This document shows, in pieces, positions 12,842 to 51,046 of a DNA stretch of 64,000 bases. Each line of letters begins with the position of its first letter. The first letter of the stretch is position 1. Origin of the DNA: Okamejei kenojei (Eukaryota). The DNA lies in NCBI GenBank assembly GCA_035221665.1, contig CM069162.1:15624001-15688000 (forward strand), read 5' to 3'. The position numbers and the translations under genes are program-made. A model generated the notes under the pieces. It was not told where the DNA came from. It saw only the letters and a list, made by a program, of their open reading frames with translations, and searched no databases.

Positions 12842-12982
12842 CCCCATGTGGAAGGCCCGACTTGTGACACTTGTAAACGTGGCCACTTCTTCCTGAGCAC
12901 GGAGAACAGAGAGGGCTGCCTGCCATGTTTCTGCATGGGAGTGACCCATCAATGCAGCAGCTCCCCCCACTACAGGAAACTG
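12842..12982 (+). CDS. HSPG2: Perlecan exon (PHVEGPTCDTCKRGHFFLSTENREGCLPCFCMGVTHQCSSSPHYRKL)
   Basis: ttacag acceptor, gtacgt donor, 141 nt, phase 0-0; GCLPCFCMG matches human perlecan. Confidence 0.95.
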
Positions 12983-15351: not shown

Positions 15352-15547
15352 GTCGCCAGTCCCATTTGTTCCACCAAATAACTTCCAGAACTTCTCCCTG
15401 GTGAGCCGCCAGCGCACGACACACATCACCTCCGGATTCACGGTGACGGTGAGGGAAGGCCAGCCGCAGCTCTCCTTTGGACGCTTTGGGCAGTACACCC
15501 AGGAGTCCTACTACTGGCAGCTTCCAGAAGTCTTTCAAGGGGATAAG
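15352..15547 (+). CDS. HSPG2: Perlecan exon, first part of third laminin IV (L4) module (...NFQNFSLVSRQR...QLSFGRFGQYTQESYYWQLPEVFQGDK); apparent frameshift near its 5' end
   Basis: ttctgcag acceptor, gtaatg donor; matches human FQGFALVNPQR...ESFYWQLPETYQGDK; length 196 nt is 3n+1 between two phase-0 introns. Confidence 0.9.
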
Positions 15548-18202: not shown

Positions 18203-18241
18203 CGGGAGGAATTCTTTGCTCGCATTAGACGTGGGCACAAG
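18203..18241 (+). CDS. HSPG2: Candidate 39-nt cassette exon REEFFARIRRGHK (furin-type RxRR site)
   Basis: Strong acceptor ctctcactcttattctgtccctttctgcag, donor AAG|gtagag, phase 0-0, open frame. Confidence 0.6.
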
Positions 18242-18743
18242 GTAGAGTGATGCCGTCTCCGTGCTTTGATGGTTGTGTTTGCTTGAGTTTGTCCCTGGAC
18301 TGAAGACTTCAGCATTAATAATGCCTTGTTTTTTGGAACATGACCGAGATGGAATTGTATCTAAACATCCAGTGGAATGGGCCAGAGTACCTTTGTGAGC
18401 ATGTGGCGTGTGGCATTCTATTGTGGCCAAGTGCTGTGCAGAAATCTGGTGCTGCTAACGACCTGTTGTCTCTGATTAGGAGAGCAGACTGCATGCCAGT
18501 AATCTCCGGGTGGTTGTCAGACACACGCAGGCACCTAGTGAAAGGAAATGGAGATGAACTATAAATGTACATTTCCCCCAAGGAGAAAGCCCACATTTTC
18601 TCAAGCAGGGAAAGCAATGGTTGAAGGCATTGCACTACGATGGAAAGTTTATATTATGAGAACCAATTGAAAATGTAATGCATTACCTCCCCAATGATCT
18701 GTGGCCACCACCAGCTTGCATTCTTATCACCTGCATGGGACTT

Positions 18744-19054
18744 GTGCGGCTTGGTGGCGCAGCAATAGAGTTGCTGCCTTATAGCGTCAGAGAACCAGGT
18801 TCGATCCTGGCTACGGGTGCTGTCTGTACGGAGTTTGTACATTCTCCCCGTGACCTTGTGGGTTTTCCCTGGGTGCTCTGGTTTCCTCCCACATTCCACA
18901 CATGTACGGGTCAATTGACATAGGTAAAAATTGTAAATTGTCCCGAGTGTGCAGGATAGCGATAGTGCATAGGAATCGCTAGTCCGCACAGACTCGGTGA
19001 CCTGAGGGGCCTATTTCCACTATATCTATAAACTAAACTAAACTAAACTAAAAC
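18744..19054 (+). mobile_element. tRNA-derived SINE (HE1-like), near full length
   Basis: A box tggcgcagcaatag, B box ggttcgatcc, tail (taaac)n. Confidence 0.88.
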
Positions 19055-19193
19055 ACCTTGGCTTTCTATTGTGATAGTGAAGTAAAACCCTTTAACCTCT
19101 TCTTTCTTCCTGTTCTATTTTTTGATTGCCTTCTCTGCTATCCATTTTTATACTTTTAACAGCACCTATTTCCCAATTGCGTTCCTTATTTAG

Positions 19194-19268
19194 TTGAAGC
19201 GTAAAACATCATCGCCTGCTTTCCATCCCCTTTACTCCCGAGCAGGCTGGAGTATCGCTTCTCAGCAC
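19194..19268 (+). CDS. HSPG2: Weak candidate 75-nt cassette exon LKRKTSSPAFHPLYSRAGWSIASQH
   Basis: Long pyrimidine tract 19095-19190, ttatttag acceptor, CAC|gtaaat donor, phase 0-0 open; competing upstream AG at 19161-19162. Confidence 0.25.
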
Positions 19269-20000
19269 GTAAATATTGCCCGATTATCCAATGACATCTC
19301 CTAGTGAGAAGTTAGTGCAGCATACATTCCCAATATCTAAATTATTTACACACTTTTCCCCAGCAACTCTTGCAGACTTTTCCTGGTGCTTGGGAACGGT
19401 ACACTGGTGCCCCTCAAGTAAATTTGATAGCTGGCACCGGTATAAACTTTCAATGTTGCAAAGTGCCCCAATTCTCCAGAAGAACATTATATATAAGAGC
19501 ATTATATTTTGAGATGAGGGCACAATAGGAACTCTGCCCAAAGGTTTAAGGCACAAGGTAAAAGAGGAGAATGAGAAAAAGCAAATTCATGAGGAAACTG
19601 CAGTTTCCGTGAGCATGCTGATTATCAGACTTTCACTGATACTTGATCACCAGTCATCCATGAATATATTTGGAAAGATAGCGATAATTATGTTATTCCT
19701 CCTTATTACTAATTGGAGGTCAGGTTCTCATAGACTCTGGAAATGAAATCTATCGAAATCATAGCCTGCTGTGTCTGTTGATGTGCAGCATGCTTTGAAA
19801 GACTATGTGTGATGGATCATATTAAATTAAACCTGCTGTCTTGTTGAGCTACAGCTGGATCCCCTTTTGTAGTTTGGCTGACTATAAAACAATGGCCAAG
19901 TTGCATTTTCTGAGACTCAGCTTGCCAACATTGCTGTTCTTGAAAGCACACGTTTGTGGCAATGTTTTATTTGACTCACAAGCAACCAGCTGAGCAGAAA

Positions 20001-20205
20001 GGGACACAAAGTCCCGGAGTAACTCAGCGGGTCAGGCAGCATCTCTGGAGAATATGGTCGGGACCCTTCTTTAGAGTCCGAAGAAGGGTCCTGGCCCAAA
20101 ATGTCACCTATCCACGCTTCTCCAGAGATGTTGCCTGACCCACTGAGTTACTCCAGCACTTTGTGTCCTTTTTGTGTAAACCAGCATCTGCACTTCCTGG
20201 TTTCT
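20001..20205. repeat. Inverted pair of Penelope-like terminal repeats (fold-back hairpin)
   Basis: Arm 20001-20057 is complementary to 20112-20169; same architecture at about 26626-26790, 30771-30910 and 63732-63912. Confidence 0.8.
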
Positions 20206-20531
20206 ACTACCCGCTGAACGGAATGGTGGTTTTGTGGCAACTGAATAACATGCAGAATTACATTTTAATAGAAGAACCCATCTTTAACTGAGGAGCAACT
20301 GAGAAAGGATGCCGCCATCTGGGAACTCTTGAGCTCCTCTTCGTCGCATCCTAGGCTTAAAAGATCTTCAAAGGTAGCAGTAAAACTGCATGTGGGAGTC
20401 TGAAGCTTGATTATTACTGACTGTACGTGGAGCAAGCAATATGCAAAGGAAATCTAACACCCCCCTTCGTATCTGTCTAATCAGATTATTTTGTTATTTC
20501 CAAATCTGAGCTTGTTTTTGTTCTCCATTAG

Positions 20532-20582
20532 TTCTCTTGTCATAAGTGTGGGAAAACCAAGAAACGATATGTTCAGTTCACG
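20532..20582 (+). CDS. HSPG2: Candidate 51-nt cassette exon FSCHKCGKTKKRYVQFT
   Basis: Acceptor cttgtttttgttctccattag, weak donor ACG|gtataa, phase 0-0, open frame. Confidence 0.45.
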
Positions 20583-21419
20583 GTATAATTTGGTGTGAGC
20601 TAACATTGCACATGAGCTGTAAGTGGAGCATGTGAATTACTTGTTAACGAGGATCTGGTATTAATTTCTCAAGGAATTTTGTGAACCGTGTATCCCACAT
20701 ACAAATCGTAGGTTGTGGTCAAGCATTCTTCCATTCTAACACATGTTTTTGCACTCACTCACTCCTTTTATAAGGGTAAAACTGCTTTAACTTGGCATTT
20801 TTCTGGACGTTAACACTATAGTTTACGAATAGGAATACATTTGAGATTCTCGCACTCAATGGAAATGCTTCAATGGGTGACCGTGAGAAAGGGTGTGATA
20901 CTGGAATGCGCAGTTGTGAATAAATACAGTAAAACTTAAATAATAATAGTAAGGGCTGCAAATAATAGTAAAGGTGTCAAAGGTTATGGGGAAAAAGGCA
21001 AGAGAATGGGGTTGTGAGGGCCAAATAATCAGCCACGATCAAATGGTGAAGCAGACTTGATGGGCCGAATGGCTTAATCCTGCTCCTTTGTCTGAAGATC
21101 TTATGACCTAATCGCTACCAGCTGTTCGAGACTTTGATCAGAAACAGGGCCCCGATCCAAAAGGCTGTCTGTCCATTCCCTCCACAGATGCTGCCTGGCC
21201 CACTGGGTTCCAGCATCTGCAGTTTCTGGTGTCCCAGTCTGACGCCCCACAGATTCGGTTTGGCTCACCTGGTTCCCTTTACTCACCCACACCTCTATTT
21301 CAGAGCGCCGTTTAAATTCATTGAGGACGCTGTTTCCACGCCTTTCTAAACTCACCAGGCCCTGTTCCAATATTCATTTTACGCACACACTGGAAAATGT
21401 AACATGCTACTCTGTAGCG

Positions 21420-22388
21420 TTCATAAGTTCACGAGTTATAGGAGTAGAATTAGGCCATTTAGCCCCTCGAGTCTACTCCGTCATTCAATCATGGCTGATC
21501 TCTGCTTCCTAATACCATTTTCTTGCCTTCCCCCCATAACCATTGACATCCATTCTAATCAAGAATTTGTCTATCTCCACCTTAAAACGATCCACTGACT
21601 TGGATCATTGAGCCTCTGTGGTAATGAGTTCCACAGATTAACTACCCTCTGACTAAAGAAGTTCCTCCTCACCTCCTTTCTAAAAGAGCATCCTTCAATT
21701 CTGAGGCCTCTGGTCCTAGACTCTCCAACCAGTGGAAACATCCTTTCCACATCCACTCGATCTAGGCCTTTCATTATTCTGTAAGTTTGGATGAGGTCCC
21801 CCCTCAACCTTCTAAACTCCAGCGAGTAGAGGCCCAGTGCTGTCAAGCGCTCATCATGTGCTAACCCACTCATTTCTGGAATCATTCCTGAACCTCCTCT
21901 GGACCCTCTCCAGAGCCAGCGCATCCTTCCTCAGATATGGGGCACTAATTTGCTCACAGTACTCCAAATGCGGCCTGACCAGCGCCTTATTGAGTCTCAA
22001 CATTAAATCTCTGTTTTTGTATTGCAGTCCTCTTGACATAAATGCTAGCATTGAATTTGCCTTCCTTACTACCAATGCAACTTGCAAATTAACTTTTTGG
22101 GAGTCCTGTAACAGCACTCCCAAGTCCCTTTGCACCTCCGATTTCTGGATTATCTCTACATTTAGAAAATAATCTATGCCTTTATTCTTATTAGCAAAAT
22201 GCATGACTCTGCACTTTGCTATACTGAATTTCAACTGCCATTTCTCTGCGCACTCTCCTAACCTGTACAAGTCTTTATGCATTGTCCTTGTTTCCTCTAC
22301 ACTGCCTGCCCCTCCACCTATCTTAGCATCAACTGCAAACCTGGCCACAAAGCCTTCAATCCCCTTATCCAAATCATTAATATACAAA
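21420..22388 (-). mobile_element. CR1-type LINE, 5'-truncated, with RT C-terminal half (frameshifted)
   Basis: ORFs 21854-22420 and 21571-21924: YINDLDKGIEG..FAVDAKIGG, QRDLGV, LVRPHLEYCEQ, RTRG; complete 3' UTR. Confidence 0.93.
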
Positions 22389-22969
22389 TAAAAATAAGAA
22401 GCAAATGAAGCACCCATCACATTCCATCATCTGTTGCCTCTTATGGTCTCCACTGAGCACTTCTAAGCCTCTGTCGCTATCTCCACCCCTCCCTCCCTCA
22501 CCTGGGACTTCACCTGCCAGCGAACCTCTCCTCACCAAAATCCACCAGTCATTTGCCTTCTCCACCTTCATCACCTGGCCACCTCCCCTCCACTCCTTCG
22601 ACCTAGATGCAGGGTCCTGACCTGGACCATCAACTGTCCATTTCCTCCACAGATGCTGCCTGACCCACTGAGTTCCTCCAGCACTTTAATTTTCAGCATC
22701 TGCAGTCTCTTGTGTCTCCAAATGAACAATGTATTGGTGTATCAATGGGAAGGCAGCGGGTGCCGGATCATCAGTTTTACTGTATTATTATTCACAAAAC
22801 AGAGAAGCCCTTTGAAAAGAAAAAGAAAATGTAAACATTTGTGAAGAAACTGCATAGTTATTCTCTATTGCCAGTGTTGTGATTTACAATGATGTTTGTT
22901 GTGAGTGTCATGGTAAACTGCAGGGATGATGACTTGTTATGGATGACTTGTCCCTTCACTTCCTTGTAG

Positions 22970-23269
22970 TCTATGCCTGATATGGAAGAGCAGAAGCGTA
23001 TAGATGATGAAGTATGGGCAATTATAACGGGTTTTGCAGCTGAGCAGTTGCACAAACCACACAGTCCTGTCTTGTCCAGCGGCAAAAATCAGTCCCGGTC
23101 ATCGCGTCCCTTTTCTCGCCTGGCGTCAGCTGGACCTGCCGGGCCTCCTGCTCCCTCTGCCGCTCGCAAAAGTTCAGCTCATGCCGTATCCTCTCCCTCT
23201 TCAAGAACTGCCTCTTCCCATTCTTCTCTCTCCCCATCTCTGCTTTCTCAACCTGCCCACCACAAAAAG
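22970..23269 (+). CDS. HSPG2: Candidate 300-nt cassette exon: SMPDMEEQKRIDDEVWAIITGFAAEQ followed by Ser/Pro/Ala-rich segment ending HHKK
   Basis: Acceptor tcccttcacttccttgtag, donor AAG|gtatgg, exactly 100 open codons, phase 0-0, not repeat-derived. Confidence 0.7.
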
Positions 23270-23639
23270 GTATGGAACTTTTTGCATTATGGAAAGTGTA
23301 AATCACCCCTTTAAGTACAGTCCTTGCTTTCTACACAAAGTGTGTCGGAAGGAACTGCATGCGGATGCTGGTTTAATAGACACAAAAAGCTGGAGTAACT
23401 CAGCGGGGCAGATAGCATCTCTGGAGAGAAGGAATGAGTGACTCTTCGGGTCGAGACCATTCTTCAGATATTCAAGACCACTCTTATGATGGAGGGTGGA
23501 ACAAATTTATGCATCACGATGTAACCTATGATAGTGAACTACTTTCAATAAAGAATGCCTTTGATGAGGATCAGTGGAGTAAATGGTTAAGGCTAGCCAA
23601 AGATAGTAACAAGTCTAGCATTGTAAAAGTTGTATATTA

Positions 23640-24080
23640 AATGGTCTGATTGGGTTAACATATGAGGAGCGTTTGATGGCTCTAGGCCTGTACTCGCTGG
23701 AGTTTAGAAACATGAGGTGTGGATGTCATTGAAACCTACCGAATAATGAAAGGTCTAGTGAATGTGAAGATGTTTCCAATAGTGGGAGAGTCTAGCACCA
23801 GAGTGCTACTGCCTCCAAATAAGAAGACTTGCCTTTGGAATGGAAATGAGGAGGAATTTATTTAGCCAGAGGGTGGTGAATCTGTGAAACTCATTGCCAC
23901 AGTCATTTGGTTTTCTAAAGCAAAGATTGGTAGGTTCTTGATTAATAAGGGCGCCAAAGGTTATGGGGGGAAAAGGCAGGAGACTGGAGTTGAGGGGGAT
24001 AAATAGGCCAGCCTCGATCAAATGGCAGAGCAGACTCGATGGAATGAGTGCCTAATTCTGCTCCTATGTCTTATGGTCTG
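23640..24080 (+). mobile_element. CR1-type LINE 3' fragment
   Basis: gggttaacatatgaggagcgtttgatggctctaggcctgtactcgctggagtttagaa and the 3' UTR; same family as 21420-22388, opposite orientation. Confidence 0.88.
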
Positions 24081-24801
24081 TTGGCAAACGGGCCACAGGT
24101 GCCTTCAAGAGATTGGTGCATCATGCCAGAGTCCAGACCTGGGGAGAAGCATCAGGTGAACACAGAAATTAATTTGAGATGTGCCCCTGTGGAGAGAAGT
24201 GAGGAGGTGTTTGGCTTACAACTCATTGGGGGCAGTTTCAGAGAAGCCCAGTGTAGTACTGAGGCTGTCTCCCACAATGCTCAGTGTTTAGGTGCCGTGA
24301 GTAGAAAAAATATTACATTGCTTCTCAACTTTTTGCGTAATATTAAGTGCAGATAGCAACTCCTCAGCTGATGATAGGCTTGAGTTGTTTTCTTTGGAGC
24401 ATTGAAGACTGATTGAGGAATTCAGAGTTATGAGGGATATTGATGGAGTGGAGAGTTTTCCCTTTGGCAGAGGTGTCTGTGAACAGAGGGCAGAGGTTTA
24501 AAATAATAGGTGTCGGACATTTAGAGGGGATTGAGGAAGAGTTTTTCCCCCCAGACAGTGTTTGGAAGCTGCAACTGTCAGTTTCAGTTTAGTTTATTGA
24601 GTACGTGGGGGGAGCGGGTACTATGTCAACGATTAAGCAGCGTTGAGATGACCACATGAAGCTCCTTACTATAAAAGGCCATGAGCCAAGTGCTCATCAC
24701 CTGCTGAGTTACACCAGCACTTTGTGTCCCACTTTGGGTAAAACAGTATCTGCAGTTCCTTCTTTCTACTCTCTTTTCTAAGTTGTTGATTTTCCCTGCA
24801 G

Positions 24802-24891
24802 ATGAAACATATCTCTAAGATCCCCTCACTGCAAGCTGAGGAATCAGCTAATCTTATTGCTTCCTCTGTGTGGGACCCAAGACCGGAGAAG
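24802..24891 (+). CDS. HSPG2: Candidate 90-nt cassette exon MKHISKIPSLQAEESANLIASSVWDPRPEK (alternative end 24900 adds VAT)
   Basis: Acceptor ttgattttccctgcag, donors AAG|gtagcc or ACG|gttagc, both phase 0, open frame. Confidence 0.5.
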
Positions 24892-25253
24892 GTAGCCACG
24901 GTTAGCTGCATGGAGTCTCAATCTCTGTGATCTGCATGTCCATGGTGTTCTAGTCTTGAGAAGGCTGGCTGATAGAATATGTTAGAAGTACTCAGCAGGT
25001 CAGGCATCGTCCGTGGAGGGAGAAAGAGCCTTAATGTTTTAGCGTGACTACGGTTCATTGAGCTGAAATGTTAGTGTTATTTCCATCGCCGTAAACCTGC
25101 TGAATATTTTCCCAGATTGTGTTTCCCAGTTCAGTGTTTTGCTTTGGGCCAGTCGGCTGCCTATTGAATTACAAACTGCAAACCTGCGAGCAGTATTATT
25201 CCTGTTTAGAGGAAGCCACTGCTTCGAATGCTTACAAAACCCACCACTTGCAT

Positions 25254-25558
25254 GTGGTAGGTGCGGTGATAGAGCTGCTGCCTCACAGCGCCAGAGACCT
25301 GGGTTCGATCCTGACCCCGGGTGCTGTCCATGTGGAATTTGCACGTTCTCCCTGTGACCACGTGGGTTTTATCCGGGTGCTCCGGTTTCCTCCCACATCT
25401 AAAAGACGTGCGGGTTTGCAGTTTAATTGGCCTCTATAAATTACCCTTGGTGTGCAAAAGTGGGATAATATAAAGCTAATCTGAATGGGCGATGATGGTG
25501 AGCGTGGACTGGTGGGCCGAAGGGCCTCATTCTACACTGTATCAATCAATCAATCAAA
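25254..25558 (+). mobile_element. tRNA-derived SINE (HE1-like)
   Basis: B box ggttcgatcc, conserved body, tail gggccgaagggcc followed by (tcaa)n. Confidence 0.85.
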
Positions 25559-27935
25559 CAATCGGGCTATCGTTATAAACGTTGAACAAAGCAAATAGTT
25601 TGTGTGCAATAAAGTAATAACTGAGGCCCAAAAAGGTGGCCCATTCTGTTTGTGATTTTAGCATGGAACTACATCCCTTACTGAGGAGCATGTTTATTTG
25701 ATTGATTTTCTTTGTTAGAATTGATATTTTGTGTGGCTTTGCTGTGGATTGACCCTGACATGTGTGTTTAAACTTGCTAGCGGATATTATTTTCAAATTA
25801 TATACGACTGTCCTTATTAACCATTGAGCAGAGGGGACACTTGTACGCCTTGCATCTTTAGATTTTGTTTAGTTTTAGGTTTATTATTATTATCACATGT
25901 ACCGAGGTACAGTGAAAAGCTTTGTTTTGCATGCTAACCAAGCAGATCAGATATACCATACATAGACACAATCAAGTCGAACTCAGATAATAATACAGAT
26001 GGAGCAATGGGGATGAAAGAGTGCAGAATATAATTCTCGGCATTGAAGCACATCAATTCCATAGACAAACTCCAATATCTTCAATGGGTAGAGGTGAATC
26101 AGGCAATGCCCTGGCGCAAGATATCAGCCTCTTCCTGACTTTTCATCGGAAGTAATTTGGGTTGTTGTGTTTGTCCACCGGAACCTGGTGGATTGATGTT
26201 GTTGGTCACTATTTTTAATGGCTGCTATGACAACACTGAGTGTAAGTGAACCATTGGCAATATTAAAGGCCTGCATCAGTATGATTTGATACATTTGATT
26301 GGAGGGTAATCATTTATTTATTTAATTAATTAATTGGATGCTGGGTCAAAAGATTATCAGAATGATAGTGAAAGGAGCCAAGAAATGTAACTGGATTTCC
26401 CCAACACTGGTTGATAAAACACCCCATTTTGGAACCTAACAAGCCCACAAGATCTACATGCACTCATGCCCCTTCTATTGGAAGTGAACTGCCAGAACCC
26501 TGCCGACCACCTGCCACGTTTGTACCAGATTCCTCCTATTGGAACAACCAGTTAACTATCTTGATTCGAGTTGCTATCTCTTCCAAATGGAGGCTAACCC
26601 TGGTTCTAAACATCAACAAAAAAAAAACACACAAAGTGTTGGAGTAACTCAGTGGGTCAGACAGCTTCTCTGGAGAACATGAACATGAATAGGTGATGTT
26701 TCAGGTCAGGACCCTTCTTCCTCATCTATCCAAGTTATCCAGAGATGCTGCCTGATCATTTGAGTTGCTCCAGCGCTGTGACTTTTTTTGTAAAACATCA
26801 TCTGCAGTTCCTTGTATCTCTGGTTTTAAACATGGCTGAAAGGCTATTTTATGTCCCCAGTTCATCCAGCTATTTCCCTGAATTCATAAAATAGAAGGGA
26901 GATCCTTTCACACCCGTTGGGGATTAAACATGATTGCACGTATTCTGATTTCTAACACACACACTGGTAGCAATGTTCCCTCTTCAGGTTATTTTTTACA
27001 GCAGAACAAGTGGCATTGATTAGAGTAATCTGAGACGTTGCAGAGCGCGGGGAGATGGAGAATGAATTTGGGAAATAAAGTAACGTTCCAGACATGTTTA
27101 AAACCAGGGCTGTTTTCCATCTACAGTATAAGAAATATTTTATCTCTTTAGTCCACCCACTTCCCATTGTAAAAGCTTGTTTGCAGCTCATTTTTAATCT
27201 GGAGTACGCTTAGATTCTTGTAGTCATTGTTTGCAAAATAAAATAATTTTTCAGAAAGATAAATTCCAGAATAAAATCGAAGTCTTGTCCGGTCTTCTCG
27301 ACCTGCATCTTCAACTCTTAAGACTTTCTGTCCGTTGGATATGCTTTCCATCTCTGGTGTATAGAAGTTTGAGTAACTTACATCTCTTAATAGTCAGGCT
27401 TAGTGTCACTCAAGTTTGTAAATCAGATTCTGCGTGTGGTCTGCACTCAGCTGACCATGTTAATGAGGTGAAATGGCAATGATTCAGCTAATAGGAGAGG
27501 AGGAGATGGAAATAGTCTTGAGGCCAGAAACTCAATGGGAAGGAAAGCAACCAATATTTCAAGGGGTTAACTTTTCATCTGGTTGAAGCTGAGAATGCAC
27601 AATGAAACAAATCTCATGCCTGTCTGTGTGTACCTTTTTTTTGCATAACCTTGTAAACAAAAACGCAGTACTCCTAATGCACAGTTACAGTTTAAGCTTT
27701 GAAACAAAGTCCAGCTCTCTTGTTAAAAAAGTGTCCTGTTAACAACACAGCTGTGCTCAATTTATCAACAGGAAATGAGGGATGGATACTGGGGGGTGTG
27801 GGGGGTGGGTACGACAACTCTGCTTAGTGCAATCCTAGGGTCAGAATTTGAGCCGTTTTGCTGACCATGGCTTTGCTTGCTGTTCTGTGTAAACTTTCTC
27901 TGTTCATCTTGTCTCTGCCTCTTTCTCTGTCCCAG

Positions 27936-28019
27936 TATGCTCTGCTTTACAAGGGCTTCAGCCTCCTGCCTGAAAACAATTTCTATTGGCGACTTCCTCA
28001 TCAGTACCTGGGCAACAAG
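27936..28019 (+). CDS. HSPG2: Extra perlecan exon duplicating the L4 segment: YALLYKGFSLLPENNFYWRLPHQYLGNK
   Basis: Strong acceptor gtctctgcctctttctctgtcccag, donor AAG|gtaacc, 84 nt, phase 0-0; carries the laminin IV signature YWxLPxxY/FxGxK that normally precedes VxSYGG. Confidence 0.85.
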
Positions 28020-29182: not shown

Positions 29183-29275
29183 GTGACATCCTACGGTGGA
29201 CGCCTTCGTTACACGCTCTCCTACGACTCGGGGTTCCGGGGAACTGCAGTACCAGATGCGGACGTCCAGATCATT
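29183..29275 (+). CDS. HSPG2: Perlecan exon, L4 module (VTSYGGRLRYTLSYDSGFRGTAVPDADVQII)
   Basis: ctttccctcag acceptor, gtacgt donor, 93 nt; resembles human VAAYGGKLRYTLSY...DPDVQIT. Confidence 0.96.
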
Positions 29276-31980: not shown

Positions 31981-32032
31981 TCACGATACTTTAGAGGCCC
32001 AGTGCTGACCGTGGATCTCCTCTCCCACACAG

Positions 32033-32263
32033 CAACTTTGGAAGCGCCCAGATGGCCAGCCGGCCACCAGGGAGCATCTGCTGATGGTCCTCGCTGACCT
32101 GGATGAAGTCCTCATCCGGGCCACCTACTCGACTGACATGATCTCTGCCAGCCTCTCTGACGTGAGCATGGAGATCGCAGTGCCCTTCTACACCGGCCTG
32201 GGCCAGGCACTGGAGGTGGAAGAATGCCTTTGCCCACAGGGCTACCATGGCTTGTCTTGCCAG
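32033..32263 (+). CDS. HSPG2: Perlecan exon, end of L4 module (QLWKRPDGQPATREHLLMVLADLDEVLIRATY...ALEVEECLCPQGYHGLSCQ)
   Basis: ctcccacacag acceptor, gtgact donor, 231 nt; RPDGQPATREHLLM is diagnostic of perlecan. Confidence 0.98.
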
Positions 32264-50878: not shown

Positions 50879-50992
50879 TAAGAGGTTTGGTTTCAGATTT
50901 TTCATTACCTGTGGAAGAATGGGATTTGTTTGGCCTCGTATGCAGTGGGAAGTTACTTACCAGAAATTTAACCTGACTTGTTAAATCCACAG

Positions 50993-51046
50993 CTTCGTCA
51001 CAGTTCCATTTTCACACATTTGAAACACCAGAAGGATACAGACAAT
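50993..51046 (+). CDS. HSPG2: Candidate 54-nt cassette exon in Ig2-Ig3 linker (ASSQFHFHTFETPEGYRQ)
   Basis: ctgac branch-like motif, tccacag acceptor, perfect gtaagt donor, phase 1-1 matching the host intron, open frame. Confidence 0.6.

What the first reader, a model, noticed from the sequence alone, without database searches (positions are those of the whole stretch)
18203..28019. Hidden chain of five phase-0 exons inside the perlecan L4 module: furin site, spacer and rebuilt L4 segment
Seen: in the intron between ...FQGDK (ends 15547) and VTSYGG (starts 29183) lie five non-repeat segments with good AG/GT sites, all phase 0-0 and stop-free: 18203-18241 (REEFFARIRRGHK), 20532-20582 (FSCHKCGKTKKRYVQFT), 22970-23269 (100 aa), 24802-24891 (30 aa), 27936-28019 (28 aa). 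Together they make a 188-aa in-frame insert. Known: as I recall it, human perlecan joins GDK directly to VAAYGG, and RxK/RR is the furin/proprotein convertase consensus. Inference: a splice-switchable module that lets perlecan be cut in the secretory pathway into an N-terminal (domains I-III) and a C-terminal (L4, IV, V) product, with the last exon re-supplying the YWxLP..GxK strand to the downstream L4 half. Automated annotations of fish may already contain these exons; I know of no functional description.
Basis: partly seen in the sequence, partly recalled or inferred. Interest (0 to 1): 0.88.

Follow-up and report, generated by a model that had tools for sequence, protein, structure and literature searches.

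The report
Spliceable furin module splits perlecan domain
In this skate-like fish, as in gene models from sharks to mammals, the basement-membrane protein perlecan has a block of five optional exons that adds two furin-type cutting motifs and a spare piece predicted to rebuild the domain it interrupts, so splicing likely switches the protein between one chain and a cut but still linked two-chain form.

Summary
Real, with one exon wrong. The segment at 20532-20582 has no RNA cover and no homolog. The true second exon, missed, is 20272-20373 and carries the clearer furin motif (RLKR). The corrected cassette is 205 aa. Spliced contigs from three runs join 20272-exon>C>D directly. The same cassette sits in RefSeq-type perlecan models from sharks, bony fish, coelacanth, amphibians, reptiles, ostrich and mammals, beside skip isoforms. 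R-X-K/R-R occurs in 47 of 47 (exon A) and 44 of 49 (exon B') non-mammal rows, about 170-fold denser than in the rest of perlecan; mammals keep site 1 in 12 of 17 and site 2 in 0 of 18. AlphaFold puts the last exon into the L4 sandwich in place of the original strands. The cut halves would share one L4 and a Cys2-Cys4 bond, so likely stay linked. Cleavage is not shown. Ten paper searches found no description. The scan noted this cassette before in another genome (e1-9106380).

The parts
12842..12982 (+). Constitutive perlecan exon carrying Cys1-Cys3 of the split LE domain that holds L4-3
   Evidence: tblastn to P0085; sequence and donor
15352..15547 (+). Constitutive exon: first ~39 aa of L4-3 (not duplicated) plus the original strand pair ending YYWQLPEVFQGDK; upstream anchor of the cassette
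   Evidence: folded in skip model, strand pair unfolded in inclusion model
18203..18241 (+). Cassette exon A, 13 aa, amphipathic helix ending in furin-type motif 1 RIRR (18221-18232)
20272..20373 (+).
   Evidence: tblastn; spliced contigs in 3 runs; motif counts
20532..20582 (+).
   Evidence: depth 0 in 4 of 4 runs and skipped by contigs; no homolog
22970..23269 (+). Cassette exon C, 100 aa: conserved helix D..IW.LLS.F (similar to the B' helix) then Ser/Pro-rich spacer predicted disordered
24802..24891 (+). Cassette exon D, 30 aa, weakly conserved spacer
27936..28019 (+). Cassette exon E, 28 aa, duplicate of the L4 strand pair, predicted to complete the L4 sandwich
   Evidence: Pfam Laminin_B positions 1-12 weak hit; homologs; model; 111 letters after D on contigs
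29183..29275 (+). Constitutive exon VTSYGG..., downstream anchor
20387..20392 (+). TGCATG (RBFOX-type motif, recalled) 14 nt after exon B'; further copies at 23356, 24907, 24933 after C and D
   Evidence: 4 seen vs 0.36 expected in 5 x 150 nt; post hoc
32030..32263 (+). Constitutive exon region holding the end of L4-3 and Cys4 onward of the split LE domain (tblastn range)
   Evidence: cysteine positions in P0085

Best explanation
Five optional phase-0 exons (A, B', C, D, E; 205 aa) splice into the third L4 module of perlecan and likely make it a furin/proprotein-convertase substrate that is cut into two chains predicted to stay joined. Shown: the exons, the B'-C-D splicing, conservation across jawed-vertebrate gene models, skip isoforms in the same species, two R-X-K/R-R motifs. 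Predicted: exon E takes the place of the original strand pair in the L4 sandwich, so strand pair + A + B' + C + D loop out of an intact domain; site 2 lies in a flexible linker between two helices. Inferred: a convertase in the secretory pathway cuts site 2, perhaps also site 1 (freeing a 34-aa helical peptide). The halves stay held by ~40 N-terminal L4 residues in the shared sandwich and by the LE Cys2-Cys4 bond, which leaves two new tethered arms. Inclusion may be RBFOX-driven (muscle, heart or nerve). Mammals keep the cassette but have lost the canonical second site.
For: RNA: one contig in each of X1, X2, X3 lies on 20270-20371, 22968-23267 and 24800-24891 at record positions 68-169, 170-469 and 470-561. 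Two of them are 672 nt, the exact length of an inclusion arm between the GDK and VTSYGG exons. Homologs: 191 of 319 resolved proteins have an insert and 128 none; both kinds occur within Amblyraja, Chiloscyllium, Mustelus, Dendropsophus, Xenopus tropicalis, Polyodon, Struthio and Nycticebus models. Motifs: canonical in 47 of 47 exon-A and 44 of 49 exon-B' non-mammal rows. P3 of site 2 takes 8 different residues while P4/P2/P1 stay R, K/R, R. 90 motifs in 9,033 insert residues vs 13 in 219,656 elsewhere; the only two in the 4,169-aa skate model are in the insert. Model: E has pLDDT 79-89 with strands, the original copy 42-62 without; in the skip control that copy is 80-93 with the same strands. 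The inclusion model matches perlecan L4 9i5a at Z 25.1, 176 residues, rmsd 1.8 over model residues 16-402. LE bonds are 1-3, 2-4, 5-6, 7-8 and L4 is inserted without disturbing them (PMC6744579 passages). In P0085 three Cys precede and five follow L4-3.
Against: No cleavage product was observed. Mammals keep the cassette with 0 of 18 canonical site 2 (12 of 18 keep R-X-X-R) and 12 of 17 site 1; five reptile/bird rows also lack site 2, and one cyprinid exon A reads RTTR. So the module has a use that may not need the cut. Exon A is conserved over its whole length (0.83) and motif 1 ends a predicted helix, which fits a binding helix as well as a cut site. Rows are related, so counts are not independent, and the search favoured insert-bearing proteins. 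Homolog models are automatic predictions. RNA is contigs from one study (at most 3 samples), labelled 'RNA?' (three as 'probably DNA'); the GDK>A and E>VTSYGG junctions rest on length arithmetic. The model is of the Amblyraja isoform, pTM 0.50, with the LE halves under pLDDT 50, so the disulfide was not modelled.
Confidence: 0.6

Rival explanations
1. The cassette is an uncut interaction arm: three short helices (A, B', C) and a Ser/Pro-rich spacer loop out of L4-3 to bind a partner or polyanion; the arginine clusters serve binding.
For: Mammals retain the cassette with 0 of 18 canonical site 2. Exon A is conserved and amphipathic along its whole length. B' and C carry similar Trp helices (shuffle p 0.0008).
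Against: Site 2 keeps exactly R-X-K/R-R with a free P3 and small P1' in a variable, predicted disordered linker in 44 of 49 rows, while the rest of perlecan nearly lacks the motif.
Confidence: 0.22
2. One reading: furin cuts and releases two free products, domains I-III and L4/IV/V.
For: Motif conservation. Exon E plus downstream exons give about 148 of 181 L4 positions on their own (Foldseek to 4yeq), so the C-terminal half might fold alone.
Against: The model builds L4 from residues on both sides of the cassette (16-402). The LE Cys2-Cys4 pair spans the cut.
Confidence: 0.12
3. The exons belong to a shorter transcript from an internal promoter, or are annotation noise.
For: The two outer junctions were not seen letter by letter here; C and D begin near Met codons.
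Against: Contigs extend 69 nt before B' (39 of exon A + 30) and 111 after D. Full-length models across jawed vertebrates hold the cassette in frame; exons A and E are as conserved as the folded domain.
Confidence: 0.04

Closest known systems
Perlecan/HSPG2 domain III, third L4 (laminin IV/B) module; RefSeq predicted isoforms such as Amblyraja XP_032903835.1, Xenopus tropicalis XP_031762630.1, rat XP_038967229.1
   Same: Same gene, same position; the cassette is already in these automatic models.
   Different: No name or function is attached. The two perlecan reviews checked by term search name other variants (miniperl, mast-cell forms) and never furin.
Glypicans cut by a furin-like convertase into two disulfide-linked subunits (PMC4859157 passage)
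   Same: A heparan sulfate proteoglycan core cut by a convertase with the halves held by disulfide.
   Different: Glypican's site is part of the core; here the site is added by splicing, with a duplicated strand pair that repairs the host domain.
Splice-in protease-site exons such as KIT ligand exon 6 (recalled, no call)
   Same: Alternative splicing decides whether a cleavage site is present.
   Different: One exon near a membrane anchor that controls shedding; no domain repair, no two-chain matrix protein.
Known vertebrate Hspg2 cassette exon regulated by RBPMS (PMC6613909) and C. elegans unc-52 isoforms (PMC6266596)
   Same: Regulated alternative splicing of perlecan.
   Different: The RBPMS exon is about 51 nt, single; its listed primers read like domain I sequence (my reading from recall), not this site. 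That unc-52 splicing concerns Ig repeats is recalled.

Membership tests
Perlecan domain III L4 module | Flanking exons are perlecan L4-3 in gene order | tested here: met
   22 consecutive matches to P0085 at 75-98% across the window; PDB perlecan hit
Perlecan domain III L4 module | L4 beta-sandwich fold with the cassette included | tested here: met
   Predicted model, Z 25.1, rmsd 1.8, 176 aligned to 9i5a; Amblyraja sequence
Alternatively spliced cassette | AG/GT ends, symmetric phase, open frame | tested here: met
Alternatively spliced cassette | Inclusion transcripts | tested here: met
   B'>C>D on contigs of 3 of 4 runs; C and D pieces in the fourth
Alternatively spliced cassette | Skip transcripts in the same organism | tested here: inconclusive
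Furin/proprotein convertase substrate | R-X-K/R-R motif (consensus recalled) with small P1' | tested here: met
   RIRR-G and RLKR-S in the window; conserved in non-mammals
Furin/proprotein convertase substrate | Site exposed in a flexible segment | tested here: inconclusive
   Site 2 in a pLDDT<50 linker (123-135); site 1 at the end of helix 86-97; prediction only
Furin/proprotein convertase substrate | Cleavage occurs and depends on a convertase | not testable with these tools
   needs protein data
Disulfide-linked two-chain proteins (glypican-like) | A cysteine pair spans the cut | tested here: met
   Cys 1379, 1381, 1388 before and 1791 onward after L4-3 in P0085; 2-4 pairing from PMC6744579
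Disulfide-linked two-chain proteins (glypican-like) | The bond forms in the inclusion isoform | not testable with these tools
   LE halves low confidence in both models

The most novel reading that the evidence does not exclude
An ancient jawed-vertebrate splice switch turns perlecan into a proprotein: two convertase cuts excise a 34-aa helical peptide, an exon-encoded spare strand pair swaps into the L4 sandwich, and a two-chain perlecan with new tethered arms is made in RBFOX-positive tissue such as muscle or nerve. Mammals kept the module but lost the second cut, which is why it has gone unseen.
Probability: 0.3. Interest if true: 0.85.

Novelty: new variant of a known kind. Interest (0 to 1): 0.62.

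Why it matters
Vertebrate perlecan is treated as one core protein with few, minor splice forms, and L4 domains have no known function (PMC6744579). A cassette kept since the shark-mammal split, with two convertase motifs and a built-in repair of the domain it breaks, points to a regulated tissue isoform of a gene behind Schwartz-Jampel syndrome and dyssegmental dysplasia. It exists in rat and other mammalian models, so it can be tested at once. If human HSPG2 has it too (not seen in my calls), exons outside the reference transcript could hide patient variants. Exon-encoded strand replacement inside a folded domain is also an unusual way to make an insertion safe.

Tried and rejected
Exon C alone as a query against proteins of 176-2000 aa found nothing; full-length perlecans were out of that range. 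ESM Atlas search of the sturgeon insert gave only sub-threshold leads. Pfam has no family for C or D. No listed run is on record as RNA. The joints and loose-end tables were filled by repeats and gave nothing on these exons; I used table 8 and the depth bins. The RBPMS-regulated Hspg2 exon is a different event (I saw passages and one supplement row, not the figure). QKI, MBNL, CELF and RBM24-type motifs showed no clear enrichment. Five probably invertebrate perlecan-like proteins show no insert at the motif I could locate; two more had no anchor; too few to date the origin. No human or mouse record appeared in the listed rows (15 members listed per cluster), so their state is open. 20532-20582 is single-copy in the genome and is the only non-homolog candidate that passes thresholds set just to admit it, so a rare lineage-specific use is not excluded (about 5-10%, my estimate). 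No complex prediction was run. Ten paper searches (listings and abstract starts only) showed no paper on this cassette. The library lacks most subscription papers, and bioRxiv supplements were not read.
Full report
Setting. The window is part of the perlecan (HSPG2) gene on the + strand of a 2.76-Gb genome. Its exons match the skate Amblyraja model P0085 at 75-98% in order, so the animal is a skate-like cartilaginous fish. The finding lies in the 13.6-kb intron that splits the third L4 module between ...FQGDK (15547) and VTSYGG (29183).

Observation. The five segments are as described. Their acceptors rank 1, 2, 6, 9 and 18 of 854 AG under a hand-set matrix. A search with the GDK exon returned 57 proteins; frog and sturgeon ones carry an insert at this very junction.

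Transcripts. Four contig runs from one study hold parts of the region. Laid on 20200-24950, one contig in each of X1, X2 and X3 covers B', C and D at adjacent record positions, with nothing between B' and C. The bin with 20532-20582 has depth 0 in 4 of 4 runs, as do other unique intron bins. The tool labels the runs 'RNA?', three as 'probably DNA', but contigs that skip GT-AG introns exactly behave as spliced RNA. They differ from the window at 3 of 300 letters in C, so the organism is this species or a close one. The contigs run 69 letters before B' (39 of exon A + 30) and, in X2, X3 and X4, 111 after D. With 31-letter words, 672 letters in all is what an inclusion arm would measure if its other arm were the skip junction; a retained intron would give 673. 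The X1 contig is 651. This supports the outer junctions and a skip form by arithmetic only; the end letters were not shown.

Spread. Of the 120 listed hits (of 347) to the frog region, 64 have an insert, 55 none, 1 unresolved; the query favours inserts. With mammalian hits and cluster members, 319 of 331 long proteins were resolved: 191 with an insert, 128 without. Inserts occur in sharks, skate, bichir, paddlefish, sturgeon, gar, teleosts, coelacanth, frogs, salamander, caecilians, turtles, lizards, snakes, ostrich, opossum and placentals including rat. Neognath bird rows listed showed none. Combinations vary, but 188 of 191 end with E by pattern and one more by eye; the two exceptions are GenBank models that end after B'. 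Exon A (0.83) and E (0.77) are as conserved as the folded L4 (0.78); the spacer is not (0.31).

Furin-type motifs. One row per genus, non-mammals: 55 rows have an insert, 47 include exon A and all 47 have R-X-K/R-R there; 49 include B' and 44 have the motif there, with eight different P3 residues and A, Q, S, V, T or G at P1'. Outside the insert these proteins hold 13 such motifs in 219,656 residues; inside, 90 in 9,033. The skate model's only two are in the insert. In 18 mammal rows site 2 is never canonical (12 keep R-X-X-R) and site 1 is canonical in 12 of 17. Rows are related, so these are not independent events. That R-X-K/R-R is the furin consensus is recalled.

Structure. AlphaFold on the Amblyraja inclusion isoform (447 aa, 45 rows, pTM 0.50) folds a complete L4 from the first ~40 residues of the GDK exon, exon E and the downstream exons. 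The original strand pair is unstructured (pLDDT 42-62), A, B' and C form helices (about 71-81), site 2 lies in a low-confidence linker, and the rest of C and D is disordered. The model aligns to the solved perlecan L4 (9i5a) over 176 residues at 1.8 A, Z 25.1. In the control without the cassette the original pair is well folded (80-93) with the same strand-helix-strand pattern. So E is predicted to replace, not just repeat, the displaced strands.

Would the halves part? LE domains pair cysteines 1-3, 2-4, 5-6, 7-8, and L4 is inserted without disturbing this (PMC6744579, passages). In P0085 three cysteines precede L4-3 and the rest follow, so Cys2-Cys4 would bridge the cut, and the sandwich itself uses residues from both sides. 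A linked two-chain product, as in glypicans (PMC4859157, passage), is therefore likelier than two free products. The LE halves were not modelled with confidence.

Regulation. TGCATG occurs 4 times in the 150 nt after the five exons against 0.36 expected (Poisson p 5e-4; one of seven motifs tried, noticed by eye first; one copy lies at the start of a repeat). That this is the RBFOX motif and that downstream copies favour inclusion in muscle, heart and neurons is recalled. Tissue is unknown.

Mechanism and odds. Real spliced cassette: about 0.97. Cleavage at site 2 in non-mammals: about 0.7. Halves staying linked if cut: about 0.8. Together about 0.6. The main rival is an uncut binding arm, favoured by the mammalian state and by the whole-length conservation of exon A. 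Both may hold: the helices may bind a partner and the cut may tune it.

Known or new. The exons are in automatic RefSeq models, so the sequence is not new. Ten searches of the paper library (listings) and term searches in three reviews showed no account of the cassette or of furin processing of perlecan; subscription papers are mostly outside the library. The RBPMS-regulated Hspg2 exon is another, 51-nt event.

Noticed in passing
window 15361-15363: The GDK exon is 196 nt after a phase-0 donor at 12982: one more C than the skate model's frame allows. Likely a one-base assembly error; if real it would break the gene upstream of the cassette.
   Followed up: partly
window 15843: A strong acceptor (rank 3 of 854) would add VKDD and a stop after GDK: a possible truncating exon, no evidence seen.
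   Followed up: no
window 20270-20275: Tandem acceptor (TAG AAG) at exon B'; homolog isoforms differ by one residue here (P0001 vs P0183).
   Followed up: partly
window 20272-20373 and 22970-23060: The helices of B' and C resemble each other (shuffle p 0.0008), suggesting an old exon duplication; tetrapods have lost the Trp of the B' copy.
   Followed up: partly
P0112, P0113, P0114, P0115, P0116, P0123, P0222: Models with exon E alone (28 aa): a tandem strand pair with no furin motif, in frog, turtles, sturgeon, a flatfish and marmot.
   Followed up: no
bird rows P0132-P0176, P0290-P0301: No listed neognath bird or emu model has the cassette, while ostrich has a short A+B'+E form without site 2: possible loss in birds or missing annotation.
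   Followed up: no
   Followed up: partly
window 50992-51045: A short 18-aa exon in domain IV, isolated in long introns, matches the skate model but not the frog query; may be another optional exon.
   Followed up: no
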